Positions 4,361 to 58,103 of a stretch of DNA of 64,000 nucleotides are shown piece after piece (position 1 is the first letter of the stretch; the number at the start of each line of letters is the position of its first letter). The notes below the pieces were generated by a model that saw only the letters and a list, made by a program, of their open reading frames with translations, made no database searches and was not told the origin of the DNA. A program made the position numbers and the translations under genes. This stretch comes from Shigella phage MK-13, in sequence record MK509462. One strand, 5' to 3'.

Positions 4361-7255
4361 ATGGCTAATAAACCAACACAGCCTGTTTTCCCTCTCGGTC
4401 TGGTGGCTGAAGAGCAGTCTACTTTGGCTGGTATCCTCAACACGGGTACGATTGAGCATGGACCAGATGCTGTCCTGACTTTACCCGAGGGTAATGCCAG
4501 TGCAGGTCTCCCGTCTTCTGTTCGCTACAATGCCGACTCCGACGAATTTGAGGGCTTCTACGAAAATGGTGGATGGTTGCCGCTGGGTGGCGGTGGTATC
4601 CGCTGGGAAGCCCTTCCGCATGCCTCTACGGCAACGCTCACTGAAGGGCGAGGCTATCTGGTAGACAACTCCACAGGCGTCTCTACGGTGGTGTTCCCTT
4701 CCCCTACGCGCATTGGCGATTCTGTTACAGTCTGTGACTTGTATGGAAAGTTCTCCCTGTATCCCCTGACCATTGACCCAAATGGTCGCCCAATGTATGG
4801 CTCTGTAGAGCCTATGACGCTCTCCACCGACAGCGTATCTGCGACCTTTACCTGGTCTGGTGACGCGCGTGGCTGGATTGTGACTGCTGGCGTCGGCCTT
4901 GGGCAGGGGCGCGTGTATAGCCGCACGATCTTCACTGAAACCGTTTCGGTAGACACCGCTCAAGTTACTCTGACAACGCAGCCGTCGATTGTTGATGTGT
5001 ATGTTGACGGCAAGCGCCTGCTGGAATCAAAGTATTCCCTCAATGGTTTCAATGTCGACTTCAGTCCATCAATCCCATCAGGTTCCGAGCTGCAGGTCAT
5101 CCAATACGTCCCGATCCAGTTAGGCAATGGCTCCGGTGGTTCCGGCGGCGGTACGGTTATCACTTGGATCTACAATAGTGGATCAGCTGCGGGTGGTGAA
5201 ACCGAGATCGAGTTGGACGTGGATGCCGAAGATGTTTCTGAGATCTTTATCGATGGATCCCGCCAGCAAAAAGGTCTGGGCTTCACTTATGACTCCGTTA
5301 CGAAGATCATCACGCTGGCCGACGAACTCGAAGCTGGTGATGAAGTTGTTGTCGTCATCAATGGCGACCCAACCCTGTACAATCAGATCGACCGTACACC
5401 AAACGAAGTGGCGCGTTCCGTGAACGTGCCGAATTCTCAGGTTATTTTGTCGTCCGATACCATCACCAAACTGGACGGAAAGACGGTTATCTATGATGTG
5501 GTGGCGCAAAAGATTTGGAGCTTACCTTCTGGTATCCCGACAGGTTCTTCTGTTGTATCTGTGAGTGGGAGCACTCTGACATATGCACCAGGGAATGTTG
5601 TTGTTTCTTTGCTCTTGCCGACTTCTGAAAGTTTGGTCGTTTTCCAAGAATTATTAGAGTCTAATGCGGGGGTTGGGTCTATTGGTGGCGTTGCTGTGGA
5701 ATTAGGAGACCGAAACTCGCTAAACTCGAACCAGACCGTGCTCGGGCGTATTGTGGCCAGCAAAACTCTTTCTGGTATTTACAACAAATATTCAGTTGTT
5801 CCCAACACAGGTAAAGTTGCTGACGGTGTGGTATTAATTGACCGCCTGGACGGTAATCAACTTGAAATTCAATTTGAAGACTATATTGATGTTCGCGCTT
5901 TCATGTTCGGCGCAATGACAGATCAGGAAACATTACAGGCAGCATTGGATTATGCGGATAGTGTTTCCGGACATTGCGTAATTGGCATCACACCCAAAAA
6001 CAAAAATGGAGACCCTTGGGTGTTCACGCATCTGCATATTGGTTCTAAAACTATTGTTAAGGGTGCAGGCGGCTGGTTGAAATTCGCAGATAATGTTTGT
6101 AATGATGCGACCAAAGCATATTATCTTGTCGAGAACTTTGATGCACAGGATACCCATTTAATAGATTTGTATATAGACGGAAACCAAGCAAGCAACACAT
6201 TGTATGCTGTAGCCGACATCTTAACGTTCGGTGGGAATCGATGCTCTATCACCAACTGTAAGCTCGTGAATGCCCCCGACTCAGGTCTGATGTTTGCGAC
6301 TACCAAAAACTGCTGGGTGAATGGTCTTTATGTAGAAAACACGCGCGACCTTGGGATCTACTTATCTGCAAGTGTGGCAGGCGGTACTCGTAACTGCGCA
6401 ATGTCCAACCTGGTGTTGCGCGACTGCGCTCAAGGGGCTATGGGTTTCAAACGCTACGTTGCCGACATTGTTGTGGATAATGTTGTAGCCACCAACTGTG
6501 GTAATGGAATCACCTTTGAAGGTTTTGAAGTTGTGACGCCGGGTATGAACCCATCCAATATCACTATGAGCAATATACGTCTGCGTGATATTGGATTTGG
6601 TTATCGGTCTGTTTCAGCGGCAGAGCGAGCTTTAAGTTTCGATTATGCTCGCGGCATCCGTATTAGCAACCTCAGCGTTCAGAACTGTTCTGGTGTCGGT
6701 ATCTTCTTCAGCACTAACACAAGTACTGGTATTTACATTAATGGCGCTAACTTAACTGGATATGCTGCTAACCCACAAATCGCGAGTGGTGTCCCAAACA
6801 ACGATGGTATTCAGTGTAATGGTGCTTCTGGTTTTGAACTGATTAATGTGAACTTGGAAGGGTTCGCAAGATACGCAGCTTGGTTCCTGAGCTGTAGTGG
6901 CGGCAGCGTGGTCGGTGGTCGTTGGACTAATACCCAGGCTAGTGGATATAATGCATACAACGGCGCACGTGTAAATGCAGCCTGTAGTTTCACTAAGTTT
7001 TCGCCTGAGTTTATTAGTGGGGCGAGCGGAACAGACCTAGAATGGTTTAATGGTGCGACTGGAATTACCAAAGACACGATACTGAACAATGCTACTGGCC
7101 CAGCAAAATATGGGTATGTTGTCGTCTCTGGTCCTACGCCTGTGGCTACAGTAACCCCCCGTTTTATTGGGCAGGAAGTCTGGAGTGCAGGTGCGAGTTC
7201 CTGGTGGAAATCACATGGCTTAACCTCCTCAGACTGGAAACAGATGTCAAATTGA
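4361..7255 (+). CDS. tailspike protein A (gp10-like N-terminal region plus right-handed beta-helix depolymerase-like domain)
   Basis: ORF 4331..7255; start moved to ATG 4361 downstream of promoter/hairpin. C-terminal half shows serial N-C-x-G / asparagine-ladder repeats (NCKLVNAPDSG, NCAMSNLVLRDCAQG, NCGNGITFEG, NCSGVGIFF) typical of pectate-lyase-fold tailspikes. Confidence 0.65.
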   Translation: MANKPTQPVFPLGLVAEEQSTLAGILNTGTIEHGPDAVLTLPEGNASAGLPSSVRYNADSDEFEGFYENGGWLPLGGGGIRWEALPHASTATLTEGRGYLVDNSTGVSTVVFPSPTRIGDSVTVCDLYGKFSLYPLTIDPNGRPMYGSVEPMTLSTDSVSATFTWSGDARGWIVTAGVGLGQGRVYSRTIFTETVSVDTAQVTLTTQPSIVDVYVDGKRLLESKYSLNGFNVDFSPSIPSGSELQVIQYVPIQLGNGSGGSGGGTVITWIYNSGSAAGGETEIELDVDAEDVSEIFIDGSRQQKGLGFTYDSVTKIITLADELEAGDEVVVVINGDPTLYNQIDRTPNEVARSVNVPNSQVILSSDTITKLDGKTVIYDVVAQKIWSLPSGIPTGSSVVSVSGSTLTYAPGNVVVSLLLPTSESLVVFQELLESNAGVGSIGGVAVELGDRNSLNSNQTVLGRIVASKTLSGIYNKYSVVPNTGKVADGVVLIDRLDGNQLEIQFEDYIDVRAFMFGAMTDQETLQAALDYADSVSGHCVIGITPKNKNGDPWVFTHLHIGSKTIVKGAGGWLKFADNVCNDATKAYYLVENFDAQDTHLIDLYIDGNQASNTLYAVADILTFGGNRCSITNCKLVNAPDSGLMFATTKNCWVNGLYVENTRDLGIYLSASVAGGTRNCAMSNLVLRDCAQGAMGFKRYVADIVVDNVVATNCGNGITFEGFEVVTPGMNPSNITMSNIRLRDIGFGYRSVSAAERALSFDYARGIRISNLSVQNCSGVGIFFSTNTSTGIYINGANLTGYAANPQIASGVPNNDGIQCNGASGFELINVNLEGFARYAAWFLSCSGGSVVGGRWTNTQASGYNAYNGARVNAACSFTKFSPEFISGASGTDLEWFNGATGITKDTILNNATGPAKYGYVVVSGPTPVATVTPRFIGQEVWSAGASSWWKSHGLTSSDWKQMSN

Positions 7256-51665: not shown

Positions 51666-53326
51666 GCATGCGCCACTTAGACCCAATCCATGCAATCGAC
51701 TTCTACAAATCAGGGCACATCTATCAGTTCCCTGAAGGCAGCGAGCTGGTGTTCTCCAACGGAACTCCGCGCTCCAACAAACTGTTCAACTCTCACCTGC
51801 CGAAGAACGGCGTGGTGGTCTGGGGCATCCAGGGTTTCATGACTTGGTTCCATGAACTGTTTGACGAAGCATTCTTCCAGCGCCCGAAGGCCAAGGTGTT
51901 GAAGAAGTATGCCCGTCGCATGAACAAAGTCCTGGGTCCAGGCCGCGTCGGCACAGAGCATATTGAAGCCCTGCATGACCTCGGCTACCTGCCTATCGAA
52001 GTCCGCGCGCTGCCTGAAGGCACCATGTGCCCGTATGGCGTTCCGGTGTATGTGATGTTCAACACCCTGCCGGAGTTCTACTGGCTGACCAACTATCTGG
52101 AGACTGTGTTCAGCTCTGAGATCTGGAAGCCGATGACGAACGCCACTATCGCTCTGCATTACAAGGCACTGATGGTGAAAGCTGCCCTCGCTACAGGCGT
52201 GTCACCGGACCATTGGTTCATCGACTACCAAGGCCACGACTTCTCCTTCCGTGGCATGAGCGGGTGGCATGACGCGGCGTCTTCCGGTTCCGGTCATCTG
52301 GTGTTCTTCAAAGGCACCGATACCAACCCTGCCCTGGACTTCGTTGAAGAGTATTATGGCGCAGACATCGACGAAGACTATGTCGTTGCTGGCTCCGTTG
52401 CGGCTACAGAACACGCCGTGATGTGTATGGGTACGAAGGATGGTGAATTCGAAACCTTCCGCCGCCTGGTGCAGGACGTGTATCCTGATGGCATCGTCAG
52501 CATCGTGTCTGATGCGTGGGATTACTGGCAGGTCATCGACGACTATCTCCCTCGCCTGAAAGATATTATCATGGCGCGTAACGGTAAAGTCGTGATCCGC
52601 CCTGACTCGGGCGACCCAGTTCATATCGTCGGCGGCTACCGCATTGAGGGGTTCAAAGACCGCGCCACGCTGAACATCAGCGGCGTGTCTAGCAGCACTG
52701 AAGTCATTCACATCGAAGAGACGAACACCTATCACCTGATCACAGGCGAAGGCACGATCAACTCTCTGATGGCAGACGACCGTAATATCATCAGCCGTTC
52801 TGAAGCAGTCGGCTCTATCCAGCGACTGTGGGAGATCTTTGGCGGTACTCAAACTGAAACTGGCCACTTCCTGTTGGACGAACACATCGGTCTGATCTAC
52901 GGTGACTCCATCACCCTGGCGCGTGAAGACCAGATCTTTAGCCGTCTGGCTGGCCGGAACTTCGCTTCCATCAACGTGGTGTTCGGTATCGGTTCCTACA
53001 CCTACCAGATGAACACCCGTGACAGTACTGGCACGGCGGTGAAAGCAACGGCTGGTAAGGTGAACGGTGAATTCCGTGAGATCTTCAAAGAGCCGAAGAC
53101 CGACAAAGGCGGGACTAAAAAGTCTGCGCGTGGTTTCCTTAAAGTCATTAAAGACTCTCAGGGTAAACTAGTGTTGGTTGACGGTATCACCTTTGATCAG
53201 GTGCAAGACGCCGACAACCAGCACCAGCTGGTGTATCGTGATGGCAAGTTCTTCAACACTCAAACTCTGGAAGATGCGCGTGTCCGCGCCGCTCCTCTGG
53301 TAGCAGAACTGGCATCACAAATCTGA
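51662..53326 (+). CDS. nadV: nicotinamide phosphoribosyltransferase (NadV / NAMPT)
   Basis: HDFSFRGMSG...GHLVFFKGTDT...GSVAATEHAV corresponds to NAMPT HDFGYRGVSS...AHLVNFKGTDT...SVPAAEHST; ATGA overlap with prs. Confidence 0.8.
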   Translation: MSMRHLDPIHAIDFYKSGHIYQFPEGSELVFSNGTPRSNKLFNSHLPKNGVVVWGIQGFMTWFHELFDEAFFQRPKAKVLKKYARRMNKVLGPGRVGTEHIEALHDLGYLPIEVRALPEGTMCPYGVPVYVMFNTLPEFYWLTNYLETVFSSEIWKPMTNATIALHYKALMVKAALATGVSPDHWFIDYQGHDFSFRGMSGWHDAASSGSGHLVFFKGTDTNPALDFVEEYYGADIDEDYVVAGSVAATEHAVMCMGTKDGEFETFRRLVQDVYPDGIVSIVSDAWDYWQVIDDYLPRLKDIIMARNGKVVIRPDSGDPVHIVGGYRIEGFKDRATLNISGVSSSTEVIHIEETNTYHLITGEGTINSLMADDRNIISRSEAVGSIQRLWEIFGGTQTETGHFLLDEHIGLIYGDSITLAREDQIFSRLAGRNFASINVVFGIGSYTYQMNTRDSTGTAVKATAGKVNGEFREIFKEPKTDKGGTKKSARGFLKVIKDSQGKLVLVDGITFDQVQDADNQHQLVYRDGKFFNTQTLEDARVRAAPLVAELASQI

Positions 53327-53333
53327 TAACCGA

Positions 53334-53355
53334 AGGGGAGGAAACTCCCCTGTTT
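53334..53355 (+). terminator. hairpin aggggag-gaaa-ctcccct + GTTTT
   Basis: Immediately after nadV stop. Confidence 0.5.
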
Positions 53356-53368
53356 TGAGGGAAACCTG

Positions 53369-53728
53369 ATGTCTGTGAAGATGAAAGGTGTCGAGTTCAA
53401 TGCGTACTACCACGATGATGAATATTGGGTGAACGGCGCTTGGCACGACGATCATTGCATCAAAGTCAATGGTGAATATCGCGAAGATGTAGACGCAGAT
53501 ATCCCCGATGACGCCGATGTGGTTATTGAATCCGGCGTGGTCTATGTTCCTGTGAATGGCGAAAGCGGGGTGGAAGAAAAAGACATCTCACTCGTCACCC
53601 ATTTCAAGAACTGGCGCAAACAGAAGAATTTCTCCTTCATTGTCGTGACGGTGGAGAAGAACAAGGTCGCCGATGTTCGCCAAGCCCTGCGGTCGATCCC
53701 TGGTGTCACCGAAGTCAAAGGTGGCTGA
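53369..53728 (+). CDS. hypothetical acidic protein
   Basis: 119-aa ORF, GAGGG RBS. Confidence 0.4.
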   Translation: MSVKMKGVEFNAYYHDDEYWVNGAWHDDHCIKVNGEYREDVDADIPDDADVVIESGVVYVPVNGESGVEEKDISLVTHFKNWRKQKNFSFIVVTVEKNKVADVRQALRSIPGVTEVKGG

Positions 53729-53729
53729 C

Positions 53730-53900
53730 ATGGCCAAACCATTTGAACGTGCGGGCGTCGACAACCTCGACCGCCGCTTTAGCCCATCGGAAACGCTGAT
53801 GAGTCAGATTGAACTCAATCGCGATTTCCTGGAACACATGCTGGTCAAGCCGGAAGGTGAGGCCGAAGACAACCCTGAAGAAGGCAATAACGATGATTGA
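53730..53900 (+). CDS. hypothetical small acidic protein
   Basis: ORF 53673..53900; ATG 53730 after AGGTGG; coupled to neighbours by overlapping stops/starts. Confidence 0.3.
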   Translation: MAKPFERAGVDNLDRRFSPSETLMSQIELNRDFLEHMLVKPEGEAEDNPEEGNNDD

Positions 53901-56094
53901 ATCATTAGAATTTAAGAATGCGGTTGAGACTGCTGCCCCGTCCAACCATGTAATCGTTGTGGACATCTCTTATTCGATGTACCGTGCGCTCCCTGAAGTC
54001 CGTAAGCATCTGAAGGAGAACCTGCCTTCTCTGGTGAAACCGGAAGACACTGTGAGTGTTCTGTATTTCTCCTCCAAAGGCGACTTTGGCACAGTGTTTG
54101 CTGGTCGTCAAATCAGCGCGGCTTCCGACCTGAGTGAGATGAACAAACTGATCGACCGCTTCCTACAACCGTCCGGATGCACCGGATTCGTGGAACCTCT
54201 GGGTCTGGCTGTAGACACCGCTCGTAGTCTGAAGAAGCCTGGTTATGTCAACAACCTGGCATTCATGACCGACGGCTATGACAACTGCTGGCGCTCCAAT
54301 GAAATCCTGGCCGTCGCCGAAACCCTGCCATTTGCTTTCGATAACATTACATTTATCGAATACGGCTGGTACTGTAACCGCGAACTGCTGGCTCTGATGT
54401 CTGAGCGCTCCGGTGCGACCCACGTGTTTGCCGAAGGTCAGGTTGAGTATCAGGCCGAGCTGGAAACCGTGCTGAAGTCTTCAGTGCCGAAGGTGGTTGT
54501 TGATGTGCCTCTGCTATACACCCACGCCATCTATGTTGAAAACGGCGTGGCAACTGTTCTGGCAGTACAGGCAGACTCAGAGCATCCCGTTGGCCACGTG
54601 AGCATCCCTGAGAGCGTCACGAAGCTGTGGGTCGTCAATCCTAACATGATCGACCAGCTTGATGCGCTGGCGGACATCCAGGCGGCATACGTGCTGGCGT
54701 TCTATGGCGTACACATCATGGACGCCGATTTGGTATGGGCTGCCCTGAAGAAAACGGGTGACGTTCGCTTCATCAAACAGTACAGCAACTGCTTCACCAA
54801 GCAGGACTACTCCAACATCAAGATCGATCTGGTTCAGGCTATTGTTGACGACCAGCTGCGCGGCGTTGACGGTATTGACTATGACCTGGTTCCAGCTGAA
54901 GATGCGACGACCGTCGTTGACGTGCTGACGTATCTGGCTGAAGCTGGCGTGTGTGTTGCTACCAAACATCCTATGTTCTCCTACAAGAGCATCGGTCGCG
55001 GTACGGCTCAGAAACTGGACGATACCGAAGACAAGCTGGCAGAACAGATCGCGAACGCCGAGTCCAAAGAAGAGCGCAAAGCCCTGGCTCTCAAGCTGGC
55101 CGAGCACGAAGAGTGGAACCCGACGTTCGAACCTAACAACGATCTGGGTGTTGTGCCAATCAGCGATTTGGTCTATAACTCCGAACGCCCTAATATCAGT
55201 GTACGCACTGTCCAGCACGGCACTGTGGCGATTCCGGAGTTCGTGCAGAAGAAGTTCGGTCTGCCTGAAGAACTGGATACTTTCCAATGGCGCAACTACA
55301 CCATCGTCAAAGACGGCATCATCAACGTGAAGACTCTGCCGTTCAGGGCTGATGTTGAAGTTGTAACCAATCTGTGCCAGATGGGCGTCCATGTGTTCGG
55401 TGGTCCGGAAGTGTTTGTCCTGAACCTGGAAAGCGTACCGCTGGTCAACCGCGCCATGGTCAAGAACATCAGTGCTGCTCAGTTCTTTGCGGATAATGTC
55501 CGTCTGGAAGCCCTGAAAGGCAAGCAGAAGGTGCTGAAGTTCTTCCGTGATGAACTGGTTGGCAAAGGTAACGCCAAAGGCCTGGCAGTACAGTACGGTG
55601 CTGAGGCGGCCGAGTTCCTGTCCTTCTACGGCATCCGTGATTACGGCTTCTCACCGAAGACCGAACTGAAGGACTCCACGGATGTCTACATGAGCCGTGA
55701 GCTGAACGTTAAGATCGCTGGAGCGTCTTCTCTGCCTAGCATCGCGGCAGTACAGAAGAAGATTGCCGAGAACAAGAAACTCAATGCGGGTGACTTGTTC
55801 ATCGCCAATGCTCTGAAGGAATACGAAGCATTCGTGAAGTCTCCTGCGATCACTGCCGTGCCTGAAGCCGTACAGAAACAGCTGATCGAAAACTGGATCG
55901 ACGCTGCTGCCAAGGCGGCCATCACTGAAGTCCGCGCCCTGAACAAGACGCTGTCTAAAGTGGTGTATGGTATCGTTGCTGGTCACGGCTGGTTCACCGA
56001 CCTCGACCTGGAAGAGTCCACCATGGAAGTTGAAGTGGATGGTGTGAAGTACAAGGTCACTGCCGAACTGGCAGAGAAAGAGATCAAAATCTAA
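53893..56094 (+). CDS. von Willebrand factor A (VWA) domain protein
   Basis: ORF 53809..56094; ATG 53893 (ATGATTGA overlap). N-terminal VIVVDISYSM is a MIDAS DxSxS motif in a beta-strand context; about 730 aa. Confidence 0.55.
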   Translation: MIESLEFKNAVETAAPSNHVIVVDISYSMYRALPEVRKHLKENLPSLVKPEDTVSVLYFSSKGDFGTVFAGRQISAASDLSEMNKLIDRFLQPSGCTGFVEPLGLAVDTARSLKKPGYVNNLAFMTDGYDNCWRSNEILAVAETLPFAFDNITFIEYGWYCNRELLALMSERSGATHVFAEGQVEYQAELETVLKSSVPKVVVDVPLLYTHAIYVENGVATVLAVQADSEHPVGHVSIPESVTKLWVVNPNMIDQLDALADIQAAYVLAFYGVHIMDADLVWAALKKTGDVRFIKQYSNCFTKQDYSNIKIDLVQAIVDDQLRGVDGIDYDLVPAEDATTVVDVLTYLAEAGVCVATKHPMFSYKSIGRGTAQKLDDTEDKLAEQIANAESKEERKALALKLAEHEEWNPTFEPNNDLGVVPISDLVYNSERPNISVRTVQHGTVAIPEFVQKKFGLPEELDTFQWRNYTIVKDGIINVKTLPFRADVEVVTNLCQMGVHVFGGPEVFVLNLESVPLVNRAMVKNISAAQFFADNVRLEALKGKQKVLKFFRDELVGKGNAKGLAVQYGAEAAEFLSFYGIRDYGFSPKTELKDSTDVYMSRELNVKIAGASSLPSIAAVQKKIAENKKLNAGDLFIANALKEYEAFVKSPAITAVPEAVQKQLIENWIDAAAKAAITEVRALNKTLSKVVYGIVAGHGWFTDLDLEESTMEVEVDGVKYKVTAELAEKEIKI

Positions 56095-56100
56095 TCCAAC

Positions 56101-56124
56101 GGGCGGGGCAACCCGCCTTTCTTT
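56101..56124 (+). terminator. hairpin gggcggg-gcaa-cccgcc + TTTCTTTG
   Basis: After VWA gene stop. Confidence 0.5.
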
Positions 56125-56136
56125 GGGAGAAGTAGC

Positions 56137-56463
56137 ATGAGCAGTAAACCAACATATGTTGAAGTCATGCGTCATCTGGCTCAGTACGCCACTGACAATC
56201 TGAACTTAGATGCAGACGAGGTGAAATACCCAAACGTCAAGAAAATGATTGACGGTGAAGTTGCCACAGACGATGCGTTGGATAAGTTTGCAGGCCTCCG
56301 CACCAAGAAGGATCTCGGCGGTGATGAACTGGACGCTATCGAAATTGTAATGGACCTCGAAGAAGAGTTTCAGGTCGAAATCGACGACGGTTGGCTGGGT
56401 AGTAAAGGCGATGACCCGACCATGGGTGAACTCGCTGAACTCGTGGTTGCCCTGCGCAAATAA
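56137..56463 (+). CDS. acyl carrier protein homologue with Ser-to-Glu substitution at the phosphopantetheine site
   Basis: DLGGDELDAIEIVMDLEEEFQVEIDDG aligns with E. coli ACP [27 protein letters not shown]; the DSL serine is GAA (Glu) at 56326..56328. Confidence 0.6.
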   Translation: MSSKPTYVEVMRHLAQYATDNLNLDADEVKYPNVKKMIDGEVATDDALDKFAGLRTKKDLGGDELDAIEIVMDLEEEFQVEIDDGWLGSKGDDPTMGELAELVVALRK

Positions 56464-56469
56464 CAGAAG

Positions 56470-56500
56470 TCCCCAACGTTTGTTGGGGATTTTTACTTTT
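56470..56500 (+). terminator. rho-independent terminator (ccccaac-gttt-gttgggg + ATTTTTACTTTT)
   Basis: 7-bp stem, T-rich tail after ACP-like gene. Confidence 0.65.
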
Positions 56501-56586
56501 AGGGGTTTACTTCCTCTAAGGAATATCCTATTATTCAATAACTGGCGAACGATGGGGTTCACCAGGTTGAAAGGTAAGATTATATC

Positions 56587-56826
56587 ATGAAGAACAAAAT
56601 GGTCGAAACTTCAGTAGAGATTGATCGCAATTGGGGCTTGCTCCGCGCTAAAGGGTTCCGCCGTGTGTATGCGACCAAAGAGGTATATGCCCAGCGCCGT
56701 GACGTTATCATCAGCAAGAAGGGCAAAGAGTGGGTTGCTGAAGAAGTCGATGTTGAGACAGGCGTCGTCGGCAAGGTGAAAGCCAAGGCCGCGATCCTCT
56801 TCGCTCTTCTGAAGCACATCAGCTAA
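56587..56826 (+). CDS. hypothetical protein
   Basis: 79 aa; AAGGTAAG RBS. Confidence 0.4.
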   Translation: MKNKMVETSVEIDRNWGLLRAKGFRRVYATKEVYAQRRDVIISKKGKEWVAEEVDVETGVVGKVKAKAAILFALLKHIS

Positions 56827-56840
56827 TTCTATAAACTCCG

Positions 56841-56859
56841 GCGGGGTATGATTACCCCG
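56841..56859 (+). repeat. palindromic hairpin gcggggtatgattaccccg (copy 1; copy 2 at 57399..57420)
   Basis: Identical 19-nt hairpin recurs 560 nt downstream; each is followed by (C)TATTTGAA...ACTATATC-ATG. Confidence 0.6.
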
Positions 56860-56885
56860 TCTATTTGAAATGCAGGAACTATATC

Positions 56886-57392
56886 ATGACCGATCAACAA
56901 ATTCAAGATTTATTTTACCTCGCCCATGATAAGTCCCACATCATGCGCCCCGGTACTGTTTCCCCTGCCGTCCGTGATCTGGTGCAAGAATTACGCGAAC
57001 CACAGACGACCACACTTTATCGCGGGCTGCCTAAGGAGGACGTTGCGCGTTTAGAGATGTTGTTTGAACGAGGCGACATGTTCCAGACATGGGATTCTTG
57101 TCTTAGCTTCAGTGAACTGAAGCATGTGGCCAAACAATTTTCTAAATCGTACGGAACCAAAGCTGTTGCCCGCATTTGTTACAAACATCGAAACGGACTC
57201 CCGGAGGGGCTTAATGTCTATGGTTCTCTAGAAAAATTTGTGAACAAAGGCGATGAATCAGAAATGGATATGCTGGACTTGGCGTCCATGGAGAAAGAAT
57301 GGATATTCTGCCAGCCTCGCGTCATACCAGTTTCAAGAAAAATGGCAACAGACGGGACGATGGTTTTTACCGTATCACTTGTTACCCTATAA
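56886..57392 (+). CDS. hypothetical protein; candidate ADP-ribosyltransferase (speculative R / S-x-S / E-x-E pattern)
   Basis: ORF 56865..57392, ATG 56886. LYRG (Arg), SCLSFS, and EKEW arranged in the order seen in R-S-E ADP-ribosyltransferases such as T4 Alt/Mod; weak evidence. Confidence 0.4.
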   Translation: MTDQQIQDLFYLAHDKSHIMRPGTVSPAVRDLVQELREPQTTTLYRGLPKEDVARLEMLFERGDMFQTWDSCLSFSELKHVAKQFSKSYGTKAVARICYKHRNGLPEGLNVYGSLEKFVNKGDESEMDMLDLASMEKEWIFCQPRVIPVSRKMATDGTMVFTVSLVTL

Positions 57393-57398
57393 ACCCAC

Positions 57399-57420
57399 GG
57401 CGGGGTATGATTACCCCGCC
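57399..57420 (+). repeat. palindromic hairpin ggcggggtatgattaccccgcc (copy 2)
   Basis: See 56841..56859. Confidence 0.6.
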
Positions 57421-57444
57421 CATTTGAAACCAAGAGACTATATC

Positions 57445-57819
57445 ATGAAAAAGTTAATCCTCGCTGTTGCCCTGCTGGGTGCTTCCTTTGCTGCTGTTTC
57501 CGCCCCTCCTGTCATCACCGGAGTGTCTACCAACGGCGTTTATGCTTTCAAGGCGTATGGCCAAGACCTCGTTCTGTATAAGAACGGGAAGATGATTGAG
57601 CGCTGTGTAGCGGATGGTGTAAACCGTGGGATCGACAATCAGGGCAGTCCGTTCATCCTGGACTTCTATGCCTGCTCCAACGGGACGAAGACCTTTGGTG
57701 TCAAGACCTTCGGCAACGTCGCCGACGGCGGCTGGGGCTTCATGATCGAAACCCGCAACCGCCGCCCGGTCACGACCATTGAAGAAGAGTTCTTGATCTC
57801 TGTCGGGGGCACGTTATGA
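57445..57819 (+). CDS. secreted protein (cleavable signal peptide)
   Basis: ORF 57253..57819 truncated to ATG 57445 (after hairpin/cassette); MKKLILAVALLGASFAAVSA signal peptide. Confidence 0.45.
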   Translation: MKKLILAVALLGASFAAVSAPPVITGVSTNGVYAFKAYGQDLVLYKNGKMIERCVADGVNRGIDNQGSPFILDFYACSNGTKTFGVKTFGNVADGGWGFMIETRNRRPVTTIEEEFLISVGGTL

Positions 57820-58103
57820 CACCATCAGAGAGAAGTTCTATCAAGGAGATGATCAGAGACAAGGCGTGTGTTGGCCATACTCAGTCAGAGAACATCTTGC
57901 GCCTGATGGAGGTCAAGAATCATATCGACAATGGCCGATTCCAATCAGCGTTGTATGGTATGCTGGAGTTTATATCGCGGTCATCTGATCTTGGCACGGT
58001 CCGATATCTTGACGATCTGACCAAGCTGCTGAACACGGGCGGGGAAACTTTCGACACCGCTCGTATCCTGATTGACGGTGGACCTGAAGAAGACGAGGTG
58101 TGA
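57816..58103 (+). CDS. hypothetical protein
   Basis: 95 aa; ATGA overlap with upstream gene. Confidence 0.4.
   Translation: MTPSERSSIKEMIRDKACVGHTQSENILRLMEVKNHIDNGRFQSALYGMLEFISRSSDLGTVRYLDDLTKLLNTGGETFDTARILIDGGPEEDEV

What the first reader, a model, noticed from the sequence alone, without database searches (positions are those of the whole stretch)
56137..56463. Acyl carrier protein look-alike that cannot be phosphopantetheinylated (DSL to DEL)
The C-terminal 50 residues align almost residue-for-residue with helix II of bacterial ACP (DLGGDELDAIEIVMDLEEEFQVEI vs [20 protein letters not shown]), but the universally conserved serine that carries the 4'-phosphopantetheine arm is a glutamate (GAA 56326..56328). 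A helix-II mimic with an acidic residue in place of the modified serine could act as a decoy for ACP-binding host proteins (AcpS, fatty-acid or lipid A enzymes, SpoT). A 30-residue N-terminal extension is also present. It is encoded directly after a VWA-domain protein and between two terminators.
Basis: partly seen in the sequence, partly recalled or inferred. Interest (0 to 1): 0.7.

Follow-up and report, generated by a model that had tools for sequence, protein, structure and literature searches.

The report
Phage ACP look-alike lacking carrier serine
A small phage protein annotated in databases as an acyl carrier protein has glutamate or aspartate in place of the serine that carries the cofactor in every relative examined, so it cannot be a carrier and most likely docks onto other proteins, though its partner is unknown.

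Summary
ORF 56137..56463 (+) encodes a 108-aa acidic protein. Its helix II aligns without gaps to bacterial ACP (DLGGDELD vs DLGADSLD), and codon GAA 56326..56328 sits where the phosphopantetheine serine should be.

The window comes from an Ackermannviridae phage (Agtrevirus-like). The gene is a family-wide core gene (PHROG 4154, about 270 phage records, usually labelled "acyl carrier protein"). All 36 relatives aligned, down to about 35% identity, have Glu or Asp at that site and never Ser. This includes an unannotated ORF in Erwinia phage Bue1.

The gene is under purifying selection (dN/dS 0.07-0.3). Of the 15 best-conserved positions that align to E. coli AcpP, 10 are identical to it, and they form the ACP partner-recognition face. 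An internal loop (residues 24-51) is a swapped, hypervariable cassette.

The gene always follows a 733-aa VWA protein with an intact MIDAS metal site. That VWA family also occurs without the look-alike, and Glu/Asp-type look-alikes occur in other phages without the VWA protein.

The protein is therefore a non-carrier pseudo-ACP. A decoy role against host ACP clients is plausible but untested. Its main rival is that the conserved carboxylate binds the neighbouring VWA/MIDAS protein.

The parts
56137..56463 (+). Pseudo-ACP gene: 108 aa, pI 4.2, ACP fold, no phosphopantetheine-acceptor serine
   Evidence: ORF. Pfam PP-binding 26.2 bits, PHROG 4154 at 6.7e-55. ACP-only hits in PDB by sequence and by fold. 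dN/dS 0.07-0.3 against relatives.
56326..56328 (+). GAA = Glu64, at the position of the phosphopantetheine serine (E. coli AcpP Ser36), which is the first residue of helix II
   Evidence: E or D in 36 of 36 family members, never S.
56323..56388 (+). Residues 63-84: the recognition helix II and the following turn. D63, L65, D66, E69, M72, E75, E77, I82 and D84 are each conserved in at least 92% of members and are identical to AcpP D35, L37, D38, E41, M44, E47, E49, I54 and D56.
   Evidence: 36-sequence alignment with E. coli AcpP; helix limits.
56155..56199 (+). Conserved N-terminal helix (residues 7-21; Y7 and V10 are conserved in 97% of members)
56206..56289 (+). Hypervariable, recombinationally swapped loop cassette (residues 24-51)
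   Evidence: Against ChubbyThor and Ag3 the loop has dN 0.46 with saturated dS, while the rest of the gene has dN 0 and dS 0.17-0.24. There are at least 4 loop types.
56392..56421 (+). Family-specific conserved loop W86-x-G88-xxx-D92-D93-P94-T95, absent from AcpP but shared with some metagenomic relatives
56101..56124 (+). Terminator-like hairpin GGGCGGG/CCCGCC plus a T-tract, between the VWA stop codon and the pseudo-ACP ribosome-binding site. No promoter-like site lies between it and the ATG, so the gene must be transcribed by read-through.
   Evidence: The equivalent terminator is annotated in LIMEstone1.
56470..56494 (+). Terminator-like hairpin TCCCCAAC-GTTT-GTTGGGGA followed by TTTTT, 7 nt after the stop codon
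   Evidence: Direct reading. The stem was found, where it is listed on the minus strand. Terminators are annotated at this place in LIMEstone1 and Mutine.
53893..56094 (+). Upstream partner candidate: a 733-aa VWA protein with a complete MIDAS motif (D24-x-S26-x-S28, T97, D127) and about 440 further residues of unknown fold class

Best explanation
This is a pseudo-ACP. It descends from a type II fatty-acid-synthase acyl carrier protein, is a core gene of Ackermannviridae phages, and has permanently exchanged the phosphopantetheine-acceptor serine for a carboxylate (Glu, sometimes Asp). It therefore cannot carry acyl groups (shown from sequence; the chemistry is inferred).

Selection has preserved the acidic recognition face of helix II and the start of helix III, the face through which real ACP docks onto basic patches of its many client enzymes. 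The protein is therefore most likely a docking module (inferred).

The preferred mechanism (inferred, untested) is as follows. During infection the protein occupies the ACP-binding site of one or more host ACP clients as a non-productive competitor. The Glu/Asp carboxylate stands in for the negative charge of the Ser36 phosphodiester of holo-ACP. This would shut down or redirect host lipid or ACP-dependent processes, much as apo-ACP inhibits glycerol-3-phosphate acyltransferase and stops E. coli growth.

The hypervariable, recombining loop (residues 24-51) would be a host-facing or evasion surface.
For: (1) Ser replaced. Gapless alignment of DLGGDELD to DLGADSLD. GAA at 56326-56328 and no nearby Ser or Thr.

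(2) Fixed and selected. E or D in 36 of 36 relatives down to about 35% identity, including phage Bue1. E and D interconvert using four codons but never become Ser, which would need at least 2 nucleotide changes. dN/dS is 0.07-0.3.

(3) Conserved face. Of 18 positions conserved in at least 90% of members, 15 align to AcpP and 10 are identical to it: D35, L37, D38, E41, M44, E47, E49, I54, D56 and T64. Only 10 of 59 non-conserved aligned positions are identical. D35 and D38 are the residues shown to contact IscS (PMC13343975).

(4) Fold. ACP fold with helix II starting at residue 64.

(5) Precedent for inhibition. Apo-ACP strongly inhibits glycerol-3-phosphate acyltransferase and stops growth (PMC3896788; the Keating 1995 paper is listed in the references found).

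(6) Independent recurrence. Canonical-length look-alikes with Glu, Asp or Asn at this site occur in unrelated viral contigs and phages that lack the VWA neighbour.

(7) Acidic bias. Among the best 150 representative hits, 69 of 75 non-Ser residues at this site are E or D, though the query profile favours E.

(8) Genomic setting. Host-takeover and auxiliary genes are nearby: NadV, a PRPP-synthetase-like gene and a Mod/Alt-like ADP-ribosyltransferase. The window has no T4-type late promoter.

(9) Variable loop. The swapped loop cassette is typical of host-facing phage proteins.
Against: No interaction was tested, so the identity of any host target is pure inference.

Several E. coli ACP partners need the real prosthetic group. 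SpoT does not bind apo-ACP, and IscS loses binding with S36T. A carboxylate may not substitute for the group.

The protein has 28 extra residues and a family-specific W86/G88/DDPT surface that AcpP lacks, so it is not a close copy of host AcpP. It is no closer to enterobacterial AcpP than to B. subtilis ACP.

The gene is invariably glued to the VWA/MIDAS gene in Ackermannviridae, which points to a phage-internal partner.

Helix II residues are conserved in all ACPs partly for folding and metal binding, so their retention is not specific proof of client docking.
Confidence: 0.4

Rival explanations
1. The pseudo-ACP is the dedicated partner of the VWA protein encoded immediately upstream, acting as ligand, regulator, chaperone or cap. 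The exposed Glu/Asp at the N-terminus of helix II completes the coordination sphere of the MIDAS metal, as acidic residues of integrin ligands or of the UBL domains bound by MDN1/Rea1 MIDAS do. The pair would then act together, possibly in or on the virion.
Against: The VWA family is much wider (502 phage records against about 270). It occurs in Slopekvirus, Karamvirus, Shewanella, PBS1 and Rhizobium phages with no ACP-like gene beside it. Glu/Asp-type look-alikes occur in other phages without this VWA family. Ackermannviridae gene order is generally rigid, so adjacency is weak evidence. A terminator-like hairpin separates the two genes. The pseudo-ACP was not reported among LIMEstone1 structural proteins. 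This model does not explain why the AcpP client-contact residues would be retained. Of two bacterial Glu/Asp-type lipoproteins with usable context, one was near a VWA gene and one was not.
Confidence: 0.27
2. It is an acidic, divalent-cation-binding or otherwise generic small protein whose function is unrelated to ACP client surfaces, for example metal buffering, a folding or assembly chaperone, or a nucleic-acid mimic. The Glu/Asp strengthens the known cation site at the start of helix II.
For: pI 4.2, with 26 acidic residues against 12 basic ones. Exported lipoprotein versions of Glu/Asp-type ACP-like domains exist in bacteria, where no ACP clients are expected. ACP helix II ends are known cation sites (general knowledge, not tested here).
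Against: AcpP itself is equally acidic. Conservation is concentrated on specific recognition residues rather than on overall charge. No positive evidence was found for any such activity.
Confidence: 0.15
3. It is still a genuine acyl or aminoacyl carrier, as the database label says, modified at another residue or by an unknown chemistry.
For: It passes the Pfam PP-binding gathering threshold and is labelled 'acyl carrier protein' in many GenBank records.
Against: No Ser at the motif in any family member, and the only serines (S2, S3, S89) are not conserved. Scores are far below every NCBIfam ACP cutoff, about 33 bits against about 70. No phosphopantetheinyl transferase, FAS, PKS, NRPS or acyltransferase gene is recognisable in the neighbourhood. 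Phosphopantetheinyl transferases act on a serine hydroxyl (established enzymology).
Confidence: 0.03

Closest known systems
Bacterial type II FAS acyl carrier protein (E. coli AcpP, B. subtilis ACP; Pfam PF00550)
   Same: Homologous four-helix ACP fold. The helix II/III recognition residues D35, L37, D38, E41, M44, E47, E49, I54 and D56 are retained. Similarly acidic.
   Different: Ser36 is replaced by Glu/Asp in the whole family, so there is no prosthetic group. There are 28 extra residues before helix II, including a hypervariable cassette. It has a family-specific W/G/DDPT loop. Scores are far below the NCBIfam ACP cutoffs.
Apo-ACP as an inhibitor of E. coli growth and of glycerol-3-phosphate acyltransferase (Keating, Carey and Cronan 1995; reviewed in PMC3896788)
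   Same: An ACP that cannot carry acyl groups but still presents the recognition helix. This shows that such a molecule is a potent competitive poison of ACP-dependent lipid synthesis.
   Different: Apo-ACP is a transient unmodified form of the host's own protein with a free Ser. The phage protein is a dedicated, diverged gene with a carboxylate at that site. Inhibition by it has not been tested.
Plasmodium and apicomplexan mitochondrial ACP lacking the Ppant group (Falekun et al. 2021, PMC8547962)
   Same: Precedent for an ACP homologue that lost the prosthetic group yet is retained under selection purely as a protein-binding subunit. It binds and stabilises Isd11-Nfs1.
   Different: It is a eukaryotic organellar protein with a known partner. 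By my recollection (not checked here) the serine is replaced by a hydrophobic residue, not a carboxylate. It has no evolutionary link to the phage family beyond the ACP superfamily.
Bona fide phage-encoded ACPs (e.g. Xanthomonas phage phiXF1 gp111; PHROG 5934)
   Same: Small phage-encoded ACP-fold proteins, cross-matching at the PHROG level.
   Different: phiXF1 keeps the DSLD motif. PHROG 4154 members do not. A strict-motif scan of IMG/VR gave more than 240 Ser-type matches against 13 Glu-type and 4 Asp-type.
MIDAS ligands of VWA domains (integrin ligands; UBL domains bound by MDN1/Rea1 MIDAS, e.g. PDB 8ql1)
   Same: A small domain presenting one invariant acidic side chain, encoded next to a MIDAS-bearing VWA protein.
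   Different: No complex has been shown. ACP folds are not known MIDAS ligands.

Membership tests
Acyl carrier protein (PP-binding, PF00550 / AcpP) | Sequence match to the family model above its curated threshold | tested here: met
   PF00550 scores 26.2 bits against a cutoff of 20.8, covering residues 59-102 only. PF14573 scores 26.8 bits, below its cutoff of 32.
Acyl carrier protein (PP-binding, PF00550 / AcpP) | Four-helix ACP fold with helix II as the recognition helix | tested here: met
   AF2 model with pLDDT 71 and pTM 0.66, helix II at residues 64-78. All top Foldseek PDB hits are ACPs, with TM 0.6-0.7 normalised to the target.
Acyl carrier protein (PP-binding, PF00550 / AcpP) | Conserved Ser of the D-S-L motif that receives 4'-phosphopantetheine | tested here: not met
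   Glu64 (GAA 56326-56328). E or D in 36 of 36 family members. No Ser or Thr between T56 and S89.
Acyl carrier protein (PP-binding, PF00550 / AcpP) | Score above NCBIfam ACP equivalog or subfamily cutoffs (functional naming rule) | tested here: not met
   The best matches are NF002148 at 33.1 bits against 71, and TIGR00517 at 32.9 bits against 70.45.
Acyl carrier protein (PP-binding, PF00550 / AcpP) | Actual phosphopantetheinylation and acyl carriage | not testable with these tools
   This needs mass spectrometry or Sfp/AcpS labelling.
Acyl carrier protein (PP-binding, PF00550 / AcpP) | Genomic association with a PPTase, FAS, PKS, NRPS or acyltransferase | tested here: not met
   No such gene lies within about 6 kb on either side. 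The neighbours are a PRPP-synthetase-like gene, NadV, the VWA protein, small hypothetical proteins, a Mod/Alt-like ADP-ribosyltransferase and spanins. The whole phage genome was not scanned.
PHROG 4154 (Ackermannviridae 'acyl carrier protein') | Full-length match to the family profile | tested here: met
   E = 6.7e-55, residues 1-108 matching profile positions 1-108 of 108. 269 phage records have at least 80% coverage.
Ppant-less structural ACPs (apicomplexan mitochondrial ACP type) | ACP fold retained under selection without the acceptor Ser | tested here: met
   dN/dS 0.07-0.3 and no Ser. This is an analogy only, not orthology.
Ppant-less structural ACPs (apicomplexan mitochondrial ACP type) | Stable binding to a defined partner (Isd11-Nfs1) independent of Ppant | not testable with these tools
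MIDAS ligand of the adjacent VWA protein | Invariant acidic residue, a co-encoded VWA protein with an intact MIDAS, and a physical complex | tested here: inconclusive
   The acidic residue and the MIDAS are both conserved, and the genes are adjacent in all Ackermannviridae loci. Both families also occur apart. The complex was not tested.

The most novel reading that the evidence does not exclude
Glu/Asp-type ACP look-alikes may be a recurrent class of viral holo-ACP mimics, in which the carboxylate imitates the Ser36 phosphodiester. Different phage lineages would have evolved them independently to jam the host ACP interaction hub: lipid A and phospholipid synthesis, SpoT-mediated stringent signalling, IscS, or the AcpP-dependent MukBEF ATPase. 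The hypervariable loop would mark an arms race with the host.
Probability: 0.2. Interest if true: 0.8.

Novelty: new variant of a known kind. Interest (0 to 1): 0.55.

Why it matters
Ackermannviridae (ViI, CBA120, LIMEstone, Ag3-like phages) are widely used for biocontrol and therapy against Salmonella, E. coli O157, Klebsiella and Dickeya. About 270 sequenced members carry this gene, and many label it "acyl carrier protein". That label is functionally wrong, because the protein has no acceptor serine.

A conserved, selected pseudo-ACP that keeps the ACP recognition helix is a concrete, testable candidate for a phage factor that interferes with the ACP interaction hub of the host. It could equally be a new kind of ligand for a phage VWA/MIDAS protein. 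Either answer would add a mechanism not yet described for phages.

The same serine-to-acid theme appears in other phages and in exported bacterial lipoproteins. This suggests a broader, unstudied use of the ACP fold as a binding module.

Tried and rejected
Shifted serine: rejected. The only serines are S2, S3 and S89, and the alignment is gapless.

Sequencing error or strain-specific mutation: rejected. E or D is fixed in the family with four different codons.

Recent capture of host acpP: rejected. The protein is no closer to enterobacterial AcpP than to B. subtilis ACP, and the nearest Ser-type relatives are metagenomic proteins sharing the DDxT loop.

General VWA association of Glu/Asp-type ACP-likes: not supported. 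One bacterial locus has a VWA/ECF-sigma cluster, another does not, two contigs were too short to tell, and non-Ackermann viral loci lack this VWA family.

Defence or anti-defence annotation: PADLOC gave only a 0.009 E-value noise hit.

Literature: five searches found no paper that discusses the missing serine or any function of this phage protein. It appears only in gene tables.

The search for related loci with the mixed alignment failed because no stretch was conserved enough. It was replaced by degenerate DNA motif scans.

A fused VWA-linker-ACP structure prediction was considered. The two ORFs are in the same frame, 14 codons apart. It was dropped because the tool returns no coordinates or PAE and both jobs were needed elsewhere.

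T4-type late promoter search: none in the window, so expression timing stays unresolved.

Full report
**What is there.** The window belongs to an Ackermannviridae phage of the Agtrevirus type. Region 53000-58000 is 95-96% identical to Shigella phage ChubbyThor and Salmonella phage SKML-39. ORF 56137..56463 (+) encodes 108 residues. It is preceded by GGGAG at 56125-56129 and followed by TAA. The protein is acidic, with pI 4.2 and 26 Asp/Glu against 12 Lys/Arg, much like E. coli AcpP at pI 4.05.

**Checking the observation.**
- Pfam PP-binding matches residues 59-102 at 26.2 bits (cutoff 20.8). PP-binding_2 scores 26.8 bits, below its cutoff of 32.
- PHROG 4154 "acyl carrier protein" matches end to end at E = 6.7e-55.
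- A phmmer search of PDB returns only ACPs, the best being B. subtilis ACP at 7e-6. Its alignment pairs kdlggdeld with edlgadsld and has no gap from there through helix II.
- Codon 56326-56328 is GAA, giving Glu64 at the place of Ser36 of AcpP. The only serines in the protein are S2, S3 and S89.
- The AF2 model built on 28 homologues (pLDDT 71, pTM 0.66) begins helix II at residue 64. Foldseek against PDB and against viral models returns ACPs almost exclusively.
- Hairpins with T-tracts flank the gene at 56101-56118 and 56470-56489. Matching terminators are annotated in LIMEstone1 and Mutine.
- No promoter-like site lies between the upstream hairpin and the ATG, so expression must come from read-through out of the VWA gene.

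**The carboxylate is a selected, family-wide character.**
- The 27 clusters found at 54-98% identity have E (25) or D (2) at the serine site.
- A profile search of 1.8 billion representatives added full-length relatives at 34-51% identity (P0029-P0036). All have E or D.
- An unannotated 99-aa ORF after the VWA gene of Erwinia phage Bue1 reads FAMDELD.
- Across 13 coding sequences the codons are GAA, GAG, GAC and GAT. Reaching any Ser codon would need at least two changes.
- Pairwise dN/dS is 0.07-0.3.
- tblastn finds the gene in 273 phage records, nearly all of them Ackermannviridae of enterobacteria.

**What is conserved.** In a 36-sequence alignment with E. coli AcpP, 18 positions are conserved in at least 90% of members. 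Fifteen of them align to AcpP, and ten are identical to it: D35, L37, D38, E41, M44, E47, E49, I54, D56 and T64. Only 10 of 59 non-conserved aligned positions are identical. These ten are the helix II/III recognition residues. D35 and D38 are required for IscS binding in a 2026 study (PMC13343975). The family-specific conserved features are Y7 and V10 in an N-terminal helix, and W86, G88 and D92-D93-P94.

**A hypervariable cassette.** Residues 24-51 behave quite differently from the rest of the protein.
- Against ChubbyThor and Ag3, the rest of the protein is 100% identical (dN 0, dS 0.17-0.24). The loop has dN 0.46 with saturated dS.
- At least four loop types exist. They are shared across genera, for example between Ag3 and PhaxI, and between this window and Marshall.
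- This indicates recombinational exchange of an internal segment.

**Neighbourhood.** The gene always follows a 733-aa protein (53893-56094) with about a 40-nt gap. This holds in ChubbyThor, CRW-SP2, Bue1, three divergent metagenomic contigs and seven IMG/VR contigs.
- That protein has a VWA domain whose MIDAS residues D24, S26, S28, T97 and D127 are conserved in 64 homologues.
- Its AF2 model is confident (pLDDT 88).
- It was detected with 6 peptides in LIMEstone1 virions (PMC3296691). It was also seen, like the pseudo-ACP, with one spectrum in a Sajous1 preparation that contained many non-structural proteins (PMC10892097).
- The VWA family is wider than the pseudo-ACP family: 502 phage records, including Slopekvirus, Karamvirus, Shewanella, PBS1 and Rhizobium phages. 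In those phages no ACP-like gene lies beside it.

**Beyond this family.**
- Look-alikes with Glu or Asp at the serine site, most of them of canonical length, occur in unrelated viral contigs (L006, L032-L034, L036, L037, L282-L285). Vibrio phage 277E43-1 has Asn. None of these has the VWA neighbour.
- A strict motif scan of IMG/VR gave 13 Glu-type and 4 Asp-type matches against more than 240 Ser-type matches. Xanthomonas phage phiXF1 keeps DSLD.
- Among the 150 best representative hits, 69 of 75 non-Ser residues at this site are acidic, although the query profile favours E.
- Many bacterial hits are Ser-less ACP-like domains behind lipoprotein signal peptides.

**Interpretation.**
- Shown: the protein is an ACP-fold homologue that cannot be a phosphopantetheine carrier and is maintained by selection.
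- Inferred: it works by docking through the ACP recognition face, with a carboxylate required at the former attachment site.
- The carboxylate could imitate the phosphodiester of holo-ACP (a phosphomimic). Alternatively it could coordinate a metal ion, either ACP's own cation site or the MIDAS of the VWA neighbour.
- I favour a host-directed decoy (confidence about 0.4). The retained residues are the client-contact residues. Apo-ACP is a documented poison of glycerol-3-phosphate acyltransferase. The theme recurs in phages without the VWA protein. The swapped loop looks host-facing.
- The VWA-ligand model (about 0.27) is the serious rival, because of the invariable adjacency and the E/D interchangeability.
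- A genuine carrier function is very unlikely (about 0.03).

**Comparison with what is known.** This is not a functional ACP: the defining serine is absent, and NCBIfam ACP models score about 33 bits against cutoffs of about 70. Its closest functional analogues are apo-ACP acting as an inhibitor, and the Ppant-less mitochondrial ACP of Plasmodium, which survives purely as a binding subunit of Isd11-Nfs1 (PMC8547962). Five literature searches found no discussion of the missing serine or of any function for this phage protein.

**Verdict.** The "cannot be phosphopantetheinylated" reading is supported. The decoy mechanism is plausible but untested, and a VWA/MIDAS-partner rival stands beside it. 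I rate it a new variant of a known kind, of moderate interest.

Noticed in passing
window 56206-56289 (residues 24-51 of the pseudo-ACP): This is an internal hypervariable cassette exchanged by recombination. The rest of the gene is identical at protein level to ChubbyThor and Ag3 (dS about 0.2), while this segment has dN 0.46 and saturated dS. At least 4 cassette types are shared across genera.
   Followed up: partly
L011 (Erwinia phage vB_EamM-Bue1, MG973030) about 4810-5106: An unannotated 99-aa ACP-like ORF (FAMDELDYIEFIMELEDD) lies in the 440-nt gap after the VWA gene. It extends the VWA plus pseudo-ACP pair, and the Glu at the serine site, to the genus Nezavisimistyvirus.
   Followed up: yes
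window 56865-57392 (+): A 175-aa ORF matches the RNA-polymerase ADP-ribosylase family (phrog_832, E = 1.8e-15, matching the C-terminal catalytic part of the profile). Its homologue in contig L005 carries Pfam Mod_ADP_RT. It is probably a Mod/Alt-like host-takeover enzyme, two genes downstream of the pseudo-ACP.
   Followed up: partly
window 53893-56094 (+): The 733-aa VWA/MIDAS protein belongs to a family found in 502 phage records across Ackermannviridae, Straboviridae (Slopekvirus, Karamvirus), Shewanella, PBS1 and Rhizobium phages. It was detected in LIMEstone1 virions. About 440 C-terminal residues have no recognised fold relative, and the function is unknown.
   Followed up: partly
P0073, P0103, P0104, P0106, P0109, P0121, P0135, P0140 (metagenomic proteins); loci L016, L019-L022: Bacterial ACP-like domains with D-[E/D]-L-D in place of DSLD sit behind lipoprotein-type signal peptides. 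They are exported, Ser-less ACP folds. One lies in an ECF-sigma / YfbK-like VWA cluster, another next to a PPIase and an enolase-superfamily gene.
   Followed up: partly
L006, L008, L032-L034, L036, L037, L282-L285 (viral contigs): Unrelated phages carry ACP look-alikes with Glu, Asp or Asn at the serine site, most of them of canonical length. Some are fused to other domains (L283, L285, and Vibrio phage 277E43-1 at 177 aa). None has the VWA neighbour.
   Followed up: partly
window 56095-56136: The VWA ORF and the pseudo-ACP ORF are in the same reading frame, separated by TAA plus 13 codons that include the terminator hairpin. Stop-codon read-through would fuse the two proteins. Nothing indicates that this happens.
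   Followed up: no
whole window: There is no T4-type late promoter motif (TATAAATA) anywhere in the 64 kb. About 0.6 would be expected by chance, so this says nothing either way about late-promoter use.
   Followed up: no
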